Below, piece by piece: positions 1 through 3,688 of a DNA stretch of 11,260 nt. The stretch lies in the UHGV virus genome UHGV-1833968; one strand, 5' to 3'. A program made the translations under genes and the position numbers. This stretch comes from a virus. Below the pieces are notes generated by a model, which was not told the DNA's origin, did no database searches, and saw only the letters and a list, made by a program, of their open reading frames with translations. How positions within the stretch are numbered: position 1 is the stretch's first letter; each line of letters begins with the position of its first letter.

Positions 1-232
1 ATATTTCTCCTGTTGTACAAGCTTCCATAAGTTGGCAGATTATACACTGAAGATTACCTATAAATAGCTGTGCGGGATAGCAGATCAGTGCAAGAAGTAC
101 AACCAAGTGAACTGTGCGTATTCAGATACCTGGCCTAACGTTCGCGATAGCCGTCCCCTGCACGAAGCCATATATTAGATGTATTAGCTCAGACCTTATC
201 TGACAGGTTGAGTAGGTAGAATCTAATCAAAG

Positions 233-366
233 CTGACAGTCTGGTTTGGACTGTGAGTTCAACCGATGGATGCAACACACAGCGATCTACGGACATTACT
301 AGCATAGCTGTGTATTAATCATCGGGAAGCAGGTCAGTCCGCTCCTAGCACAGAGCAGACTGTCAG
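233..366. repeat. 11-bp perfect inverted repeat pair ctgacagtctg (233-243) / cagactgtcag (356-366), 112 bp apart, with a third copy of the CTGACAG heptamer at 200-206
   Basis: Exact reverse-complement match verified by hand. The second arm lies inside the loop of the 346-387 hairpin, so the two are nested. A further 6-bp hairpin acagtc-tggtttg-gactgt sits at 236-254. Confidence 0.55.
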
Positions 367-387
367 ATTAGGCTTTACTCTGTGCTA
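346..387. repeat. Perfect 10-bp inverted repeat (stem tagcacagag / ctctgtgcta) with 22-nt spacer, 35 nt beyond the G stop codon
   Basis: 346-355 tagcacagag and 378-387 ctctgtgcta are exact reverse complements. No flanking U/T run on either strand, so not a canonical intrinsic terminator. Confidence 0.6.
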
Positions 388-421
388 TAGATACGTTAGC
401 TCACTCCAGAGATCATACAAC

Positions 422-949
422 TTATTGCGGCATTTCCGGCCATTCAGGATTTGCAGGATCCACACGGCTGACCAGAACACTGTAGCGTTCCCATGCTTCC
501 AGTCGGCTACGCTCCTCATCTGTTGCCATATTCAGTCTGACAGAGCGTTCCAGTGGCTGAATGATAGTTTCAGCTTCGGAAAGCAAAGCTGACTTCTGTA
601 ATTCCGCCAGTTGCAGCTGTTCGTCTGCCGTATAAATCCGCTTAATCACGGCACCATCCTTAAACATCCATTTACCTGAGTCATCAGCACGTCGGTTGGC
701 GGTAATATCAGGAACCTCGACAACGCTAAAACCTTCAGGGTTGAGCGTTGAAGCATCTCTGGTGATGCCGACAATTATATTATTCTCATCGTAAACAATC
801 TTTATCGTGTCTTCCTGAAAATTACTTACTTCCTCATACCAGTTTTTTCCCTCTTCAGACCATAACCAGATAACATCAAAATTTTTTGTCAGTTGATATT
901 GGGCAACAGTTTTTGGATTACCCGCAGTAATATTTTTTAAATGCTGCAT
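422..949 (-). CDS. G: Tail fibre assembly protein (P2 gpG / Tfa-like chaperone)
   Basis: 175-aa ORF starting 3 nt downstream of the tail fibre gene stop. Protein runs MQHLKNI...[11 protein letters not shown]; size and position match P2 G. Very AT-rich (about 33-35% GC on sampled 60-nt lines), like the fibre distal end. Confidence 0.9.
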
Positions 950-952
950 AAA

Positions 953-3688
953 TTACACCTGTGCGACGTTATACCATGTGCCATTGATGTATTTTTGTAT
1001 TGGTCTGAATACTGCGGGGTCATCACCATCGACTTCACCGACAATACCAAGCCCGGTAATTACGTGCCCTGCTTTCTCATACATCACCCCTTTCTGCATG
1101 GTCTGGACAACACGTGTGCCAAGTCTGACATCTCTCACATAGCGGGAATCAAAGTTACCGTAATCCGAGGGATTAACACGCCCCGTAATATTTATGGTTT
1201 TATTACTTTGAACGCTTCCGGAGACAAAGCGCATAACATGGACGCTATTAGCATAAACATCCAGATTACCATCACCATTTTGTTTAAAGCCCGTGTCATT
1301 ATCACCCAAAACAATCGAATTACCGCCAAGAGCACTGGATGTTCCTATACCCAGAGCACCATTCAATTGACCACCAGATAACGGCAGTGCACCGACATCT
1401 CCCGCTGTAGGTTTTCGCGTTGTGGTATAAAACTCAGACCAGTCAGCCTCGAATCCGTAACCGTCACGAGCAGAACGATAAAAAATACCACCGTTCTTAT
1501 AATTAACGCGAAACTGGGCGGCGGGACAACTTCCTTCCCCGATATTAAAATGAAGAATTAACGTTGATGCCCCACCAATAGTTGCGTTATAGGCTCCGCT
1601 ACTCCAGTTCCATCCAACGGCTTTATCATTCGCAACGGTGTCTCCTGTTTTTCCTGAAGCAAATGCACCAATATTTTTCGGCGTCAGGTTAATATCTGAT
1701 GTTCCATCAAACGAAACGTTATTAATTTTACGGGCTGTTTTCAGCTTTGTTGCTGTCGCCGCATTGCCGGACAGTTCACCAGAAAGGCCAGCACTGAATG
1801 TCTGTTTCGCGCCCCATGTCTGGGCTTCGTCAATGATTGGTACTCGTCTTGTTGTGATCGTGCGGCTTCCCGGATTTCCTGAAATGCGCACCATAAAAAA
1901 GCGGTAGTTGGCTTTACTTACAGTGCTGCGCCATACATGCATTGAGCGCCCCGAACCAGAATCATCACTCGGACCGACTGAGATGTTTATCAGGTTGCCA
2001 TCAATGACGCCCCAGTCCATACCGTCGGGAATGTTGGTCATATTATCAAGCCGAACGGTTATCAGACTGCCCGGCACAAAATCGTAGGTCTGCCAGTCCA
2101 GACTGGATAGTTTTGCCACTGCGCCACCGATGCCCAGATTCAGAGGCAACGAAAAGGAGTTATATACTTCTCGCCATTCGGTCCATTTGCTCCCGGCATA
2201 GACGCGCTCAAAAGTGCGCCCCTGTGTGGTTTCTGATTTCCCTGTGGTTGTGTAACGCTGCCAGACAGATACACCATCAAAACGCCTGATTACTTCCAGT
2301 ATTCCAAGCAGTGTCGCTCCAGCGGTATCCTGCATTGGACCGTTTGACGCCTTCCCTGTAACGCTGTAAATGCCTGGCGAAGTCAGATCATTCAAATCAC
2401 CTTCGTAATAACGACATTCTGACTGATGGCCTACTCTTGACCACGGCTCCCACTGTGGGTTCTGTGCATTCCATATAGCAGAAAGGCAGCGAACATATAC
2501 GTTCCCACGGCGGGTCGTATAGCGTTGCGTGCGTGAGTACCCACCACCCTCAAGAACTTCAAGGAATCCCTGACCATAAATTCCTTCTTCCGGATAGTTG
2601 CGGTCAAATGAAGCGATAGAGCCACTACTGTTTCGCCATAAACCAAGATGCTCTGCGCCTCCTAGCGTGTTCAGGTCAATAGTTGTGCTCAGGGGGCGTG
2701 TTGCAGACTGAATCTGACGCCAGTAGATCCACGGACCGTCTGAGCCATTCCAGGTGCCAGAAAGATTACGCATATAAACATTGCCAGTTCTGGTGGTATA
2801 ACGCTGCATTCCGGAAAAATTACCGCCATTGAATACCTCAAGAACACCGACTGCACCGTCTTCAGGGAAATTTTTCTCCAGTGTTGCGTTGGAGGATGTG
2901 GATTTAGACCAGACACCCACATAAGCCTTAACTGGACCAAATGTATTGAGATCAGCATCAACCGGCATTTCGCCGTTGTTTTTCATAAACGTCAGGCTGG
3001 TAACACCAATATTGTCCAGAAAAGCTGATTTATCCTGGATATCTGCACCGTTCTGATTTTTCGCCAGACGTGAATTTGCGTTGTCATTTGCTGCCTTGAC
3101 CGCTTTTGGCGTTGCCGCCAGCTCTTCACTGGTGCTGTTTGTTGCACTGCTTAACTGAGTAAAACCTTTTTCTGTCAGCGTGGCGTCAGGATGGCGGCGG
3201 GACTGCTCATGCTCTGCGATTTTGTCATCGACGTAATCCTGCGTCGCCATCACTGTGCTGGCATCAATACTCAGCTCAACGGACGCCACGTTGCTGAGAA
3301 TAATAACCATGCGGCAGGTCTGCGCACGTCCGGAGCCTTCAGCCAGTTCTGGCTTATAGCTTTCAGCCATGTTGGATACCGCAATCAGTGTTCCGGCATC
3401 GTCATACAGACCAAGCTCACGCATCCAGAAGCCGCCCACTTCGGGCGGTACAACCAGTTCAGCCACAATATAGTTTTTATTCTTATTATCCACACTGACT
3501 TTATTCAGAGCGTGACGCCAGACCTCATGCACCAGTTTCGTCTGACCGGCATCCGGCACCGGTAATTTGCCATTACCGTCACCCACGGCCATTGCAGACA
3601 GGTTTACTTTTTTCCCGCCGGGGACAGTGGCGGCTGCCAGCTTTGCGGCTCCGGCAGTAGTGATAACGGTTTTAAATTTCGTGCTCAT
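953..3688 (-). CDS. H: Tail fibre protein (P2 gpH-like, mosaic, 911 aa)
   Basis: Uninterrupted 911-aa ORF. The N-terminal ~200 aa (MSTKFKTVITTAGAAKLAAA...EVWRHALNK...FWMRELGLYDDAGTLIAV) matches the conserved baseplate-attachment domain of P2 H from recall. The centre holds three tandem ~80-aa repeats. The C-terminal region (GGNSIVLGDNDTGFKQNGDG...GNFDSRYVRDVRLGTRVVQ...KYINGTWYNVAQV) is fibre-tip-like. Position between I and G fits. Confidence 0.9.
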   Translation of the reverse strand: MSTKFKTVITTAGAAKLAAATVPGGKKVNLSAMAVGDGNGKLPVPDAGQTKLVHEVWRHALNKVSVDNKNKNYIVAELVVPPEVGGFWMRELGLYDDAGTLIAVSNMAESYKPELAEGSGRAQTCRMVIILSNVASVELSIDASTVMATQDYVDDKIAEHEQSRRHPDATLTEKGFTQLSSATNSTSEELAATPKAVKAANDNANSRLAKNQNGADIQDKSAFLDNIGVTSLTFMKNNGEMPVDADLNTFGPVKAYVGVWSKSTSSNATLEKNFPEDGAVGVLEVFNGGNFSGMQRYTTRTGNVYMRNLSGTWNGSDGPWIYWRQIQSATRPLSTTIDLNTLGGAEHLGLWRNSSGSIASFDRNYPEEGIYGQGFLEVLEGGGYSRTQRYTTRRGNVYVRCLSAIWNAQNPQWEPWSRVGHQSECRYYEGDLNDLTSPGIYSVTGKASNGPMQDTAGATLLGILEVIRRFDGVSVWQRYTTTGKSETTQGRTFERVYAGSKWTEWREVYNSFSLPLNLGIGGAVAKLSSLDWQTYDFVPGSLITVRLDNMTNIPDGMDWGVIDGNLINISVGPSDDSGSGRSMHVWRSTVSKANYRFFMVRISGNPGSRTITTRRVPIIDEAQTWGAKQTFSAGLSGELSGNAATATKLKTARKINNVSFDGTSDINLTPKNIGAFASGKTGDTVANDKAVGWNWSSGAYNATIGGASTLILHFNIGEGSCPAAQFRVNYKNGGIFYRSARDGYGFEADWSEFYTTTRKPTAGDVGALPLSGGQLNGALGIGTSSALGGNSIVLGDNDTGFKQNGDGNLDVYANSVHVMRFVSGSVQSNKTINITGRVNPSDYGNFDSRYVRDVRLGTRVVQTMQKGVMYEKAGHVITGLGIVGEVDGDDPAVFRPIQKYINGTWYNVAQV
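2159..2938 (-). repeat. Three tandem, diverged ~80-aa repeat modules inside the tail fibre (aa ~251-335, 342-425, 438-510)
   Basis: Protein-level alignment of the translated ORF. Shared motifs: G-x-LEV-x-x-G, QRYTT(R/T)xGNVY(M/V)R, S-x-x-W, (E/I)-(P/Y)-W. Example cores: GVLEVFNGGNFSGMQRYTTRTGNVYMRNLSGTWN / GFLEVLEGGGYSRTQRYTTRRGNVYVRCLSAIWN / GILEVIRRFDGVSVWQRYTTTGKSETTQGRTFERVYAGSKW. Nucleotide coordinates are derived from aa positions and are approximate. Confidence 0.75.

What the first reader, a model, noticed from the sequence alone, without database searches (positions are those of the whole stretch)
200..387. Nested perfect inverted repeats and a recurring CTGACAG heptamer in the non-coding region downstream of G
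Within about 190 bp there is a perfect 10-bp inverted repeat (346-355 / 378-387, 22-nt spacer), a perfect 11-bp inverted repeat (233-243 / 356-366) whose right arm sits inside the loop of the first, a 6-bp hairpin (236-254), and three copies of CTGACAG or its complement (200-206, 233-239, 360-366). By my rough estimate a perfect inverted repeat of 10-11 bp is expected well under once by chance in 421 bp. None is followed by a U-run, so they are not classic intrinsic terminators. Possibilities are a protein-binding dyad array (regulator or recombinase site), a structured small RNA, or a boundary or remnant of an inserted cassette.
Basis: seen in the sequence. Interest (0 to 1): 0.45.

Follow-up and report, generated by a model that had tools for sequence, protein, structure and literature searches.

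The report
Cargo-slot boundary repeats of P2 prophage
The nested inverted repeats are the two kinds of end-repeat that bound the swappable "cargo" slot of P2-like prophages, one of them already annotated in 2004, and they appear to belong to a widespread cassette-exchange system that travels with a small, highly conserved recombinase.

Summary
All the repeats are at the stated coordinates, and two perfect inverted repeats of at least 10 bp occur in only 2 of 1000 shuffles.

Window 337-421 is the conserved "left inverted repeat" of the P2 Z/fun cargo slot (GenBank AJ512680-85; Nilsson 2004). Its core is a 24-nt palindrome, GTCCGCT-N10-AGCRGAC (337-360), followed by TGTCAG.

Window 179-257 is a relic of the opposite, "right", end type: two CTGACAG boxes 33 nt apart plus half a palindrome. 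It lies inside the resident cargo, a module of a DUF5677 gene plus a 200-aa tyrosine recombinase. That module also occurs in lambdoid prophages and in Buttiauxella.

Empty P2-like slots lack both ends. The late-operon terminator lies on the far side of the cargo.

The same palindromes bound cargo genes in other prophages, chromosomal islands and an IncF plasmid. Sequence identity breaks inside the palindromes. In at least 17 cargo contexts the recombinase gene has a right-type palindrome about 45 nt upstream of its start codon, constant on the gene side and variable on the cargo side.

The best reading is site-specific cassette-exchange sites, and no catalysis has been shown. An invertible switch, a terminator and a known RNA family are rejected.

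The parts
422..949 (-). Gene G (tail fibre assembly protein), last gene of the P2 late operon V-W-J-I-H-G. Its stop codon is at 422-424.
   Evidence: ORF list. RefSeq annotation of the identical locus in E. coli ATCC 11775.
337..421 (.). Long L-type end, the 'left inverted repeat' of the P2 Z/fun cargo slot. It is conserved at 87-92% in P2, Wphi, L-413C, the P2-EC phages and the Yersinia P2-like phages, whatever cargo they carry.
   Evidence: hits annotated 'left inverted repeat'; GenBank features; the alignment diverges completely left of 337. It is absent from empty slots.
337..360 (.). L-type core palindrome GTCCGCTCCTAGCACAGAGCAGAC (arms GTCCGCT/AGCRGAC, 10-nt centre holding TGGCAC-like TAGCAC). 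This is the proposed crossover site.
   Evidence: 48 unique L contexts. Mismatch profiles. The same cargo in P2 and in Buttiauxella is identical through the first ~15 nt of the palindrome and then diverges.
361..366 (.). A degenerate second box, CGTTAG, lies at 394-399, 33 nt further out (TGTCAG or TGTAAG in other phages).
   Evidence: of 50 unique L contexts, 14 have box 1 and 10 also have box 2. The spacing is the same as in the R ends.
346..387 (.). Hairpin B, the perfect 10-bp inverted repeat TAGCACAGAG/CTCTGTGCTA. Its left arm is the centre plus distal arm of the L palindrome, so the two structures exclude each other. The right arm occurs only in P2-type L ends.
   Evidence: One pair changes A:T to G:C through intermediates. 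3 of 11 variants have a central mismatch. ssDNA/RNA fold z-scores are -1.4 to -2.6.
179..257 (.). Relic of a long R-type end carried inside the cargo module. It comprises the outer terminus ATGTATTAGCTCAGACC, CTGACAG box at 200-206, CTGACAG box at 233-239, and half a palindrome GTCTGGTTTG (239-248). The cargo-side half is replaced, which creates the small hairpin at 236-254.
   Evidence: Direct repeat of the true right IR beside FI (49 nt at 71%; 23 nt at 91%, score 36 against a shuffle maximum of 26). 80% identity over 70 nt to an intact long R end in L032, E 1.6e-13. The same two-box layout occurs in P2, L032 and L074. It is present in every copy of the module, including the lambdoid one.
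258..336 (.). 79-nt imperfect palindrome between the R relic and the L end (263-286/304-325). Its right part (311-336, TGTATTAATCATCGGGAAGCAGGTCAG) is a motif that recurs near palindromes elsewhere. Function unknown.
1..178 (-). 5' untranslated/upstream region of the cargo gene encoding a DUF5677 protein. Its ATG lies immediately left of window position 1, and the ribosome-binding site is the complement of about 5-12.
   Evidence: CDS at 5158-6000 of L003; window position 1 = L003 position 6001; Pfam; conserved in four contexts.

Best explanation
The interval is where two opposite-type ends of an exchangeable cargo slot face each other.

Window 337-421 is the L-type end that P2-like phages carry directly after gene G. 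It consists of a 24-nt palindrome (337-360), a TGTCAG box, a second degenerate box 33 nt on, and a P2-specific extension that forms the 10-bp stem.

Window 179-257 is a decayed R-type end: two CTGACAG boxes 33 nt apart plus the backbone-side half of the R palindrome. It came in with the resident cargo, a module made of a 194-aa tyrosine recombinase gene, a DUF5677 gene and window 1-336. The heptamers are the boxes of those ends.

Shown here: both ends are part of the insert, not of the minimal phage. Cargo changes exactly at the palindromes. The same palindromes bound cargo in unrelated replicons. The small recombinase gene always carries an R-type palindrome just upstream of its start.

Inferred: the palindromes are crossover sites of a tyrosine recombinase. 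Strand exchange occurs in the palindrome centre, after GAGCGA in R and around TGGCAC in L. Cargo is swapped by R-with-R and L-with-L exchanges, or through folded single strands as in integrons. The 200-aa recombinase is the enzyme.

In this particular prophage the cargo joined P2 precisely at the L palindrome. Its other junction is an illegitimate one: it cuts the recombinase's last 12 codons and a neighbouring terminator hairpin.
For: Identity: the window is 100% identical to a P2-like prophage of E. coli ATCC 11775, S88 and APEC strains. Only 337-421 matches other P2-like phages, and GenBank AJ512680-85 annotate it as 'left inverted repeat' with a partner 'right inverted repeat' beside FI.

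Boundary: in 12 phages with different cargo the alignment becomes conserved at window 337 and, on the other side, up to GCTTTGAGCGA.

Empty slots: three P2-like prophages have the G stop codon followed within 5 nt by the intrinsic terminator, with neither repeat.

Inverted-repeat relation: L against the reverse complement of R gives 33 nt at 79%, score 31 against a shuffle maximum of 24. The inner copy against the true R gives score 36 against a maximum of 26.

Module: the DUF5677-recombinase module, including window 1-336, is 89% identical in a Rac-like prophage of E2348/69 and 97% identical in Buttiauxella.

Palindromes elsewhere: L-plus-R pairs lie between cargo genes inside multi-gene P2 slots. 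They also occur in Rac-like prophages, a chromosomal island, O157, BS0013 and an IncF plasmid.

Enrichment: 66 palindromes in 809 kb around recombinase homologues, against 0-9 for 20 scrambled palindromes. Homologues only 54-66% identical also have them, one with three in tandem right after the gene.

Junction inside the site: for R palindromes with the same backbone but different cargo, positions 1-13 differ in 0-16% of pairs and positions 14-24 in 14-65%.

attI-like site: upstream of the recombinase ATG, at least 17 distinct contexts share the sequence up to GTCCCTTATGAGCGA and diverge from there.

Folding: L-R pairs fold as single strands with z-scores of -3.5 to -5.6.

Recombinase: the R-H-R-Y catalytic residues are intact, including in the window's strain. 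It is present in 848 of 5426 E. coli genomes and on 83 plasmids.

Literature: the inverted repeats flanking fun were proposed to enable site-specific recombination (PMC8987985, citing Nilsson 2004).
Against: No recombination product, circular intermediate or orientation variant was observed; all the evidence is comparative.

Most P2-like phages with these ends do not encode the recombinase, so it would have to act in trans or in another replicon.

The 85-90 bp conserved ends could by themselves support homologous exchange among P2-like phages.

L and R centres differ (7 of 10 positions alike), so a simple L-by-R reaction is not expected for a classical tyrosine recombinase, and the reaction scheme is open.

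The loci used are not independent samples; many are near-duplicates, and they were chosen through the recombinase or through the repeat.

Marine ICE copies of the recombinase (83% identical) showed no palindrome at the stringency used.

In the lambdoid copy of the module, homology stops just before where the L palindrome would be, not inside it.

The original 2004 paper could not be read.
Confidence: 0.68

Rival explanations
1. The repeats are only conserved flanks. Cargo is exchanged among P2-like phages by ordinary homologous recombination within the 85-90 bp ends and the neighbouring G and FI genes. The palindromes serve another purpose, such as insulating cargo transcription.
For: The ends are 87-92% identical among phages, which is long enough for RecA or phage recombinases. 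Most P2-like phages lack the small recombinase. The latest survey lists homologous recombination as one candidate mechanism (PMC13586616).
Against: The same palindromes bound cargo in lambdoid prophages, chromosomal islands, a plasmid and other genera, where no flanking homology to P2 exists. Identity breaks inside the 24-nt palindrome. There is a tight and evolutionarily deep association with one recombinase family.
Confidence: 0.2
2. The stems act at the RNA level on the late transcript that ends with gene G, as a 3'-end stabiliser, a processing site or a U-less terminator. Alternatively they encode a small RNA.
For: The 10-bp stem is conserved in P2-type L ends. One pair switches A:T to G:C, with intermediates that are G-U only on the G-sense strand. 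The 236-nt region folds better than shuffles, z = -2.5.
Against: There is no Rfam match even at E = 10 and no T-run. The z-score is equal on the opposite strand. 3 of 11 variants carry an uncompensated mismatch in the middle of the stem. Empty slots do without it and place G directly against a canonical terminator. The right arm is missing from non-P2 L ends.
Confidence: 0.08
3. The 11-bp repeats flank a fim-like invertible switch, flipped by the cassette's 194-aa recombinase to control the DUF5677 gene.
For: The recombinase has the size of FimB/FimE and gives a weak NCBIfam hit to tyrosine-type DNA invertase, 22.9 bits against a cut-off of 222. Perfect inverted repeats bracket 112 bp upstream of the gene.
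Against: A query with 244-355 inverted finds no matching genome among 5426 complete E. coli genomes; the best match is 84.7%, explained by the segment's own palindromy. The uninverted form is at least 99% identical in 38 records. One arm belongs to the phage backbone element found in phages without the recombinase.
Confidence: 0.03
4. The repeats are chance matches in AT-balanced non-coding DNA.
For: Single perfect 10-bp inverted repeats do arise in 6% of shuffles.
Against: Two such repeats together occur in 0.2% of shuffles. Both arms lie in elements conserved across phages and genera.
Confidence: 0.01

Closest known systems
Inverted repeats flanking the Z/fun region of P2-like coliphages (Nilsson, Karlsson & Haggard-Ljungquist 2004, Mol Biol Evol 21:1; GenBank AJ512680-AJ512685)
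   Same: Window 337-421 is this element. It has the same position after G and 87-92% identity, and its partner lies beside FI. Site-specific recombination was already proposed for it (as summarised in PMC8987985).
   Different: This prophage has an additional, decayed right-type end inside the cargo. The cargo itself encodes a tyrosine recombinase. To my knowledge the 24-nt palindrome core, the L-R pairs between cargo genes, the empty slots and the link to a recombinase have not been described. I could not read the 2004 paper.
Integrons (IntI integrase, attI, attC sites, gene cassettes)
   Same: A tyrosine recombinase gene has a recombination site directly upstream that is constant on the gene side and variable on the cargo side (like attI). 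Imperfect palindromes of 65-70 nt between promoter-poor cargo units fold as single strands (like attC). Arrays of unrelated cargo genes occur.
   Different: The recombinase has 200 aa with no IntI-specific insertion (18 bits against a cut-off of 435). The sites have no RYYYAAC/GTTRRRY cores, and their sequence, not only their structure, is conserved. Cargo is bounded by two different site types in inverted orientation. Units are often multi-gene and carry their own regulatory regions.
pdif modules of Acinetobacter plasmids (XerC/XerD sites in inverted pairs around cargo)
   Same: Cargo modules are bracketed by inverted pairs of short palindromic tyrosine-recombinase-type sites. They are found in many replicons, with no transposase.
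   Different: The sites are unrelated to dif (7-10-7 rather than 11-6-11). The associated recombinase is a dedicated mobile 200-aa protein, not chromosomal XerC/XerD (43 and 26 bits against cut-offs of about 330).
PeSL (promoter-early stem-loop) cassettes in T4-type phages (from my own knowledge, not checked here)
   Same: Repeated stem-loop-containing sequences flank small accessory-gene cassettes in phage hyperplastic regions and are thought to drive their shuffling.
   Different: PeSL shuffling is ascribed to homologous recombination between repeats that also act as promoters. No recombinase is involved.
fimS-type invertible switches with FimB/FimE
   Same: Small tyrosine recombinase of about 200 aa, and short inverted repeats upstream of a gene.
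   Different: No orientation polymorphism was found, and one repeat arm is a phage backbone element.
REP/BIME palindromic units
   Same: Pairs of inverted palindromic units with a short linker, lying between genes.
   Different: Only 1-3 copies per genome, and only in accessory regions. No RAYT transposase is present, and the sequence is unrelated.

Membership tests
P2 Z/fun-region 'left inverted repeat' | Lies immediately downstream of the stop codon of gene G in a P2-like late operon | tested here: met
   G is at 422-949(-) and the element at 337-421.
P2 Z/fun-region 'left inverted repeat' | Sequence homology to the repeat annotated in AJ512680-AJ512685 | tested here: met
   86.9-91.8% identity over 84-87 nt to the four annotated AJ records that matched, E 2e-17 to 1e-24. 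The features under the match are named 'left inverted repeat'.
P2 Z/fun-region 'left inverted repeat' | A partner right inverted repeat on the FI side of the cargo | tested here: met
   L003 3890-3952 (outside the window) is inverted to window 337-369, 33 nt at 79%, above all 500 shuffles.
Intrinsic (Rho-independent) terminator | G+C-rich stem followed by a run of U on the transcribed strand | tested here: not met
   No site in 1-460 on either strand. The canonical terminator GGCGGGC..GCCCGCC plus T-run lies beyond the cargo, next to the FI promoter.
Integron (attC/attI with IntI) | Integron-type integrase (IntI family) | tested here: not met
   NCBIfam integron integrase scores 18.3 bits against a cut-off of 435. 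The protein has 200 aa and a catalytic domain only.
Integron (attC/attI with IntI) | attC core sites RYYYAAC ... GTTRRRY at cassette boundaries | tested here: not met
   The boundaries are GTCCGCT-N10-AGCGGAC palindromes. No GTTRRRY cores occur at the junctions.
Integron (attC/attI with IntI) | Single-strand folding of the cassette-associated site into an imperfect hairpin | tested here: met
   L-R pairs fold with z-scores of -3.5 to -5.6, and 0 of 200 shuffles fold as well. This shows resemblance in how it may work, not membership.
Xer/dif-type sites (including pdif modules) | 28-bp site with 11-bp XerC and XerD arms around a 6-bp centre, recognised by XerC/XerD | tested here: not met
   Site geometry is 7-10-7 (or 8-8-8) and the sequence is unrelated. 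The recombinase scores 43 bits (XerC) and 26 bits (XerD) against cut-offs of 335 and 330.
Invertible DNA switch (fimS-like) | The segment between the inverted repeats is found in both orientations | tested here: not met
   No inverted form in 5426 complete E. coli genomes.
Any Rfam RNA family | Covariance-model match at or near the gathering score | tested here: not met
   Best hits score 10-16 bits against gathering scores of 65-117, with E above 3.
Transposon / MITE with terminal inverted repeats | Target-site duplication and a transposase or transposase-derived ends | tested here: not met
   Comparison of empty and occupied slots shows no duplication. No transposase lies in the slot.
Tyrosine recombinase (Pfam PF00589) | Catalytic domain with the R..H-x-x-R..H/W..Y residues | tested here: met
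   PF00589 at 65-68 bits against a cut-off of 27. In alignment A1 (numbering of the window-strain protein) H148, R151, H174 and Y183 are invariant, and the first catalytic Arg is provisionally R51. Y183 is retained in the window's strain, although the last 12 aa are replaced. Activity was not tested.

The most novel reading that the evidence does not exclude
A so far unrecognised, integron-like cassette platform in Gammaproteobacteria. Its parts would be:
- a 200-aa tyrosine recombinase that is extremely conserved (76-95% identity from Escherichia to Idiomarina);
- an attI-like half-variable palindrome 45 nt upstream of the recombinase start codon;
- two heterotypic 24-nt palindromes (L and R) that occur either as long ends or as attC-like L-R pairs.

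Together these would move accessory and anti-phage cargo between P2-like phages, lambdoid prophages, genomic islands and conjugative plasmids. This would supply the missing mechanism for the rapid swapping of defence genes at phage hotspots.
Probability: 0.4. Interest if true: 0.85.

Novelty: new member of a known kind. Interest (0 to 1): 0.6.

Why it matters
P2-like prophages are among the main carriers of anti-phage defence genes in enterobacteria. The most recent large survey (PMC13586616, 2026) concludes that cargo at their hotspots is swapped extremely fast, including with unrelated elements such as plasmids. [quoted passage not shown]

The repeats in this window point to a concrete, testable mechanism for one of the two P2 hotspots: defined 24-nt palindromes where cargo junctions fall, and a candidate enzyme that travels with some of the cargo.

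If it holds, it gives three things:
- a rule for delimiting cargo units in prophages, islands and plasmids;
- a way to predict exchange partners;
- a compact natural cassette-exchange system.

If it does not hold, the window still documents a clean example of the repeat-bounded Z/fun slot described in 2004, with an extra relic end.

Tried and rejected
- **Rfam:** scanning 1-700 at E up to 10 gave only noise.
- **Promoters and terminators:** the sigma-70 and terminator scans of 1-460 found nothing, so the promoter of the DUF5677 gene remains unlocated.
- **Invertible switch:** rejected by the inverted-junction search.
- **Transposon or MITE:** no target duplication and no transposase.
- **REP/ERIC-like dispersed repeat:** rejected, because the L-R pair occurs only 1-3 times per genome and in 1116 of 5426 genomes. 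A resemblance to ERIC that I recalled was not tested further and is not claimed.
- **Module left boundary:** I first took the left boundary of the module (L003 4485) for a second precise element end. Comparison with Buttiauxella and E2348/69 showed it is a truncation junction specific to the P2 copy.
- **Degenerate L end at window 130-199:** a possible one, not significant against shuffles.
- **Change-point analysis of flank homology:** uninformative, because the palindromes are conserved in all copies. Per-position mismatch profiles were used instead.
- **Covariation:** it cannot separate a folded-strand model from a symmetric protein-binding model, because both predict paired changes in a palindrome.
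- **Other searches that found nothing:** PADLOC finds none of the three cargo proteins. PDB sequence search finds no relative of the recombinase. The genome-contig scan with the DUF5677 protein returned only 2 loci. The 2004 paper is not in the library.
Full report
**1. The observation**

- a perfect 10-bp inverted repeat at 346-355/378-387;
- a perfect 11-bp inverted repeat at 233-243/356-366;
- a 6-bp hairpin at 236-241/249-254;
- CTGACAG at 200-206 and 233-239, and its complement at 360-366.

A fourth CTGACAG lies at 537-543 inside gene G. The whole window holds 7 copies against 1.3 expected.

In 1000 dinucleotide-preserving shuffles of window 1-421, a perfect inverted repeat of at least 10 bp appeared in 63. 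One of at least 11 bp appeared in 15. Two of at least 10 bp appeared in 2. No stem is followed by a T-run, and no promoter-like or terminator-like site is found.

**2. Where the window comes from**

The window is 100% identical to a P2-like prophage present in E. coli ATCC 11775, S88, several APEC strains and others. Its genes run on the minus strand: G is at 422-949, H at 953-3688, followed by I, J, W and V.

The 421 bases to the left of G are not simply 'downstream of G'. Immediately left of window position 1 starts a minus-strand gene for a DUF5677 protein. Beyond it lie a gene for a 194-aa tyrosine recombinase and a 125-aa hypothetical gene, and then the tail sheath gene FI. This is the Z/fun slot of P2, one of the two places where P2-like phages carry variable cargo.

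**3. The right part (337-421) is a known element**

Only 337-421 matches other P2-like phages, at 87-92%. In GenBank records AJ512680-AJ512685 this stretch is annotated as the 'left inverted repeat' of the Z region, with a 'right inverted repeat' beside FI.

I aligned 12 phages with different cargo. The sequences are unrelated up to window 336 and alike from 337 onward. On the FI side they are alike up to ...CTGACAGTCTGCTTTGAGCGA and unrelated after it.

The two ends are inverted repeats of each other: 33 nt at 79%, score 31 against a maximum of 24 in 500 shuffles. [quoted passage not shown] I could not read the original paper.

**4. Both ends belong to the insert, and the terminator is elsewhere**

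Three P2-like prophages have an empty slot (NCTC11151, WP2-W18-ESBL-08, EC556). In them the stop codon of G is followed within 5 nt by a canonical intrinsic terminator and then by the FI promoter region. Neither repeat is present.

In occupied slots the same terminator sits beyond the cargo, next to FI. This explains why the stems in the window have no U-run. They are not the operon's terminator.

**5. The anatomy of the ends**

The cargo-proximal core of each end is a 24-nt palindrome:
- L type: GTCCGCT nn TGGCAC nn AGCGGAC. In the window this is 337-360, GTCCGCTCCTAGCACAGAGCAGAC.
- R type: GTCYGCT nT GAGCGA nn AGCRGAC.

These were found.

In the 'long' form found in P2, the palindrome is followed on the backbone side by CTGACA, and by a second such box 33 nt further out. 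In the window's L end these are TGTCAG at 361-366 and the degenerate CGTTAG at 394-399.

Its right arm belongs to a P2-specific extension. The two structures therefore exclude each other. The stem is conserved in P2-type ends, but 3 of 11 variants have an uncompensated mismatch in its middle, and only one pair covaries.

**6. The left part (179-257) is a relic of the opposite end type**

Window 200-248 is a direct repeat of the true right end beside FI: 49 nt at 71%, with a 23-nt core at 91% that scores above all shuffles. Window 179-248 is 80% identical (E 1.6e-13) to an intact long R end in an unrelated viral contig, where that end begins right after a gene's stop codon.

The relic keeps the outer terminus, both CTGACAG boxes at the family's 33-nt spacing, and the backbone-side half of the palindrome (GTCTGGTTTG). 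The cargo-side half has been replaced, and this by accident or otherwise creates the small hairpin at 236-254.

The three heptamers are two boxes of an R end and one box of an L end. The 11-bp perfect repeat is the core shared by the two end types.

Between them lies a 79-nt imperfect palindrome (258-336) of unknown role.

**7. The cargo is a module that also lives elsewhere**

The recombinase gene, the DUF5677 gene and window 1-336 together recur at 89% identity in a Rac-like lambdoid prophage of E. coli E2348/69. There, homology ends at window 336/337. They recur at 97% in a Buttiauxella genome, where homology runs on through the first ~15 nt of the L palindrome and then stops.

E. coli A30 has the same P2 slot with the 125-aa gene but without the module.

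The module's other junction in P2 lies in the loop of a terminator hairpin and replaces the last 12 codons of the recombinase. It is therefore an illegitimate junction.

**8. The palindromes are a family of cargo boundaries**

Compact elements consist of an L palindrome, about 18 nt, and an R palindrome. They sit between cargo genes inside multi-gene P2 slots (phage 899, EC48, and a partial one in EC46). They also occur in Buttiauxella, strain BS0013, Rac-like prophages, a chromosomal island next to a TonB-dependent receptor gene, and O157:H7.

On an IncF conjugative plasmid of Shigella sonnei the palindromes occur singly rather than as compact pairs, and there they bracket betT/DUF2254, a hypothetical gene, and the recombinase with its neighbour.

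The compact element occurs in 1116 of 5426 complete E. coli genomes, at 1-3 places each. It is therefore not a dispersed repeat like REP.

As single strands these elements fold into long imperfect hairpins far better than shuffles: z = -3.5 to -5.6, with 0 of 200 shuffles folding as well.

**9. The link to a recombinase**

Recombinases 92-95% identical to the module's lie within 2-3 kb of the palindromes in the Rac-like and chromosomal loci.

Around 68 viral-contig homologues I found 66 palindromes in 809 kb, against 0-9 for 20 scrambled palindromes of the same composition. Homologues only 54-66% identical also have GTCCGCT..AGCGGAC palindromes. One has three in tandem directly after the gene.

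The most telling result concerns the region just upstream of the recombinase start codon. It reads: a short hairpin, then GGTT, then an R-type palindrome. In at least 17 different cargo contexts the sequence is constant up to GTCCCTTATGAGCGA and diverges from there.

Independently, I compared R palindromes that share a backbone but differ in cargo. Positions 1-13 differ in 0-16% of pairs and positions 14-24 in 14-65%. L palindromes show the mirror pattern less sharply.

Cargo junctions therefore fall inside the palindromes, as expected for strand exchange in the centre of a recombinase core site. The recombinase-proximal site resembles an integron attI.

The family is very large and very conserved. 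There are 7993 proteins at E below 1e-10, with 76-95% identity from Escherichia to Proteus, Pantoea, Idiomarina and Cycloclasticus. It is present in 848 of 5426 E. coli genomes and on 83 plasmids. The R-H-R-Y catalytic residues are intact. It is far below the cut-offs for XerC, XerD, integron integrase and DNA invertase, and it has no sequence relative in the PDB.

**10. Mechanism proposed, and what is only inferred**

Shown:
- the identity of the two elements in the window;
- that both ends are part of the insert;
- that cargo changes at the palindromes in many replicons;
- the association with the recombinase and its attI-like site.

Inferred:
- that the palindromes are crossover sites;
- that the 200-aa protein is the enzyme;
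- that cargo is swapped either by paired like-with-like exchanges (R with R, L with L, a natural counterpart of engineered cassette exchange with heterospecific sites), or through folded single strands as in integrons.

The centres of L and R differ (7 of 10 positions alike). A simple L-by-R reaction is therefore not what a classical tyrosine recombinase would do. Covariation in the arms (C:G to T:A at pair 4 in several contexts) fits both a folded-strand model and a symmetric-binding model.

**11. Rivals**

- **Homologous exchange within the conserved ends.** This can explain swaps among P2-like phages. It does not explain the same palindromes in replicons that share no flanks, the breakpoints inside the palindromes, or the recombinase link.
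- **An RNA role for the 10-bp stem.** This may coexist with the main explanation but has weak support.
- **A fim-like invertible switch.** Rejected: no genome holds the segment inverted.
- **Chance.** Excluded.

**12. Novelty and interest**

As far as I could establish, the following are new:
- the relic R end inside a recombinase-bearing cargo;
- the 24-nt palindrome cores;
- the empty slots;
- the L-R pairs between cargo units in many replicon types;
- the attI-like site of a conserved small recombinase.

[quoted passage not shown] Literature searches for such a system found nothing. The library is incomplete, however, and the 2004 paper could not be read.

I therefore file the window's feature as a new member of a known kind. 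I give the integron-like platform as the novel reading, at a probability of 0.4.

Noticed in passing
window 258-336: A 79-nt imperfect palindrome (263-279/309-325 and 274-286/304-316) lies between the R relic and the L end. It forms the strongest predicted stem of the region on both strands.
   Followed up: partly
window 311-336; also L016, L025, L053, L074: The motif TGTATTAATCATCGGGRAGCAGGTCAG recurs 0-50 nt from L or R palindromes in other cargo contexts, in either orientation relative to the palindrome. No explanation.
   Followed up: partly
window 537-543 (inside gene G): A fourth CTGACAG (TCTGACAG, identical to 199-206) lies in the 3' part of G. The window has 7 copies against 1.3 expected, and only three of them lie in the end elements.
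   Followed up: no
L003 5049-5087 (just outside the window) and all recombinase loci: A conserved hairpin, CATACTCAAATCTCC-N9-GGAGATTTGAGTATG, overlaps the start codon of the recombinase gene. It could occlude the start codon and ribosome-binding site, or be a protein-binding site.
   Followed up: partly
L007/L009 (Yersinia phage vB_YpM_22, E. coli phage 720R8), FI side of the slot: These P2-like phages lack the usual long R end. Instead they have the first few codons of the recombinase gene with its hairpin and R-type palindrome, acting as the cargo boundary.
   Followed up: partly
L013 3179-4552 and 2557-3192 (E2348/69 Rac-like prophage): An AAA ATPase gene plus an HNH endonuclease gene lie next to the decayed recombinase-DUF5677 module. 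They look like a defence-type gene pair in the same variable region.
   Followed up: no
L092-L096 (marine metagenome/ICE-like contigs) and L101 (Idiomarina CP025000): The same 200-aa recombinase (80-83% identical) sits between arsenic- and copper-resistance gene blocks in marine elements. In Idiomarina it sits beside an eptA/two-component cluster, whose far end carries a perfect R-type palindrome.
   Followed up: partly
L015 (E. coli IHE3034) and H58 (GPEC128-620): Two variants of the same slot. One has the recombinase gene truncated to a 153-bp remnant and a different FI-side boundary. The other has an IS3-family insertion inside the cargo.
   Followed up: no
L016 1164-1742: A Hin/Gin-type serine recombinase gene lies about 2 kb from the palindrome array in the Buttiauxella locus. 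Its relation to the array is unknown.
   Followed up: no
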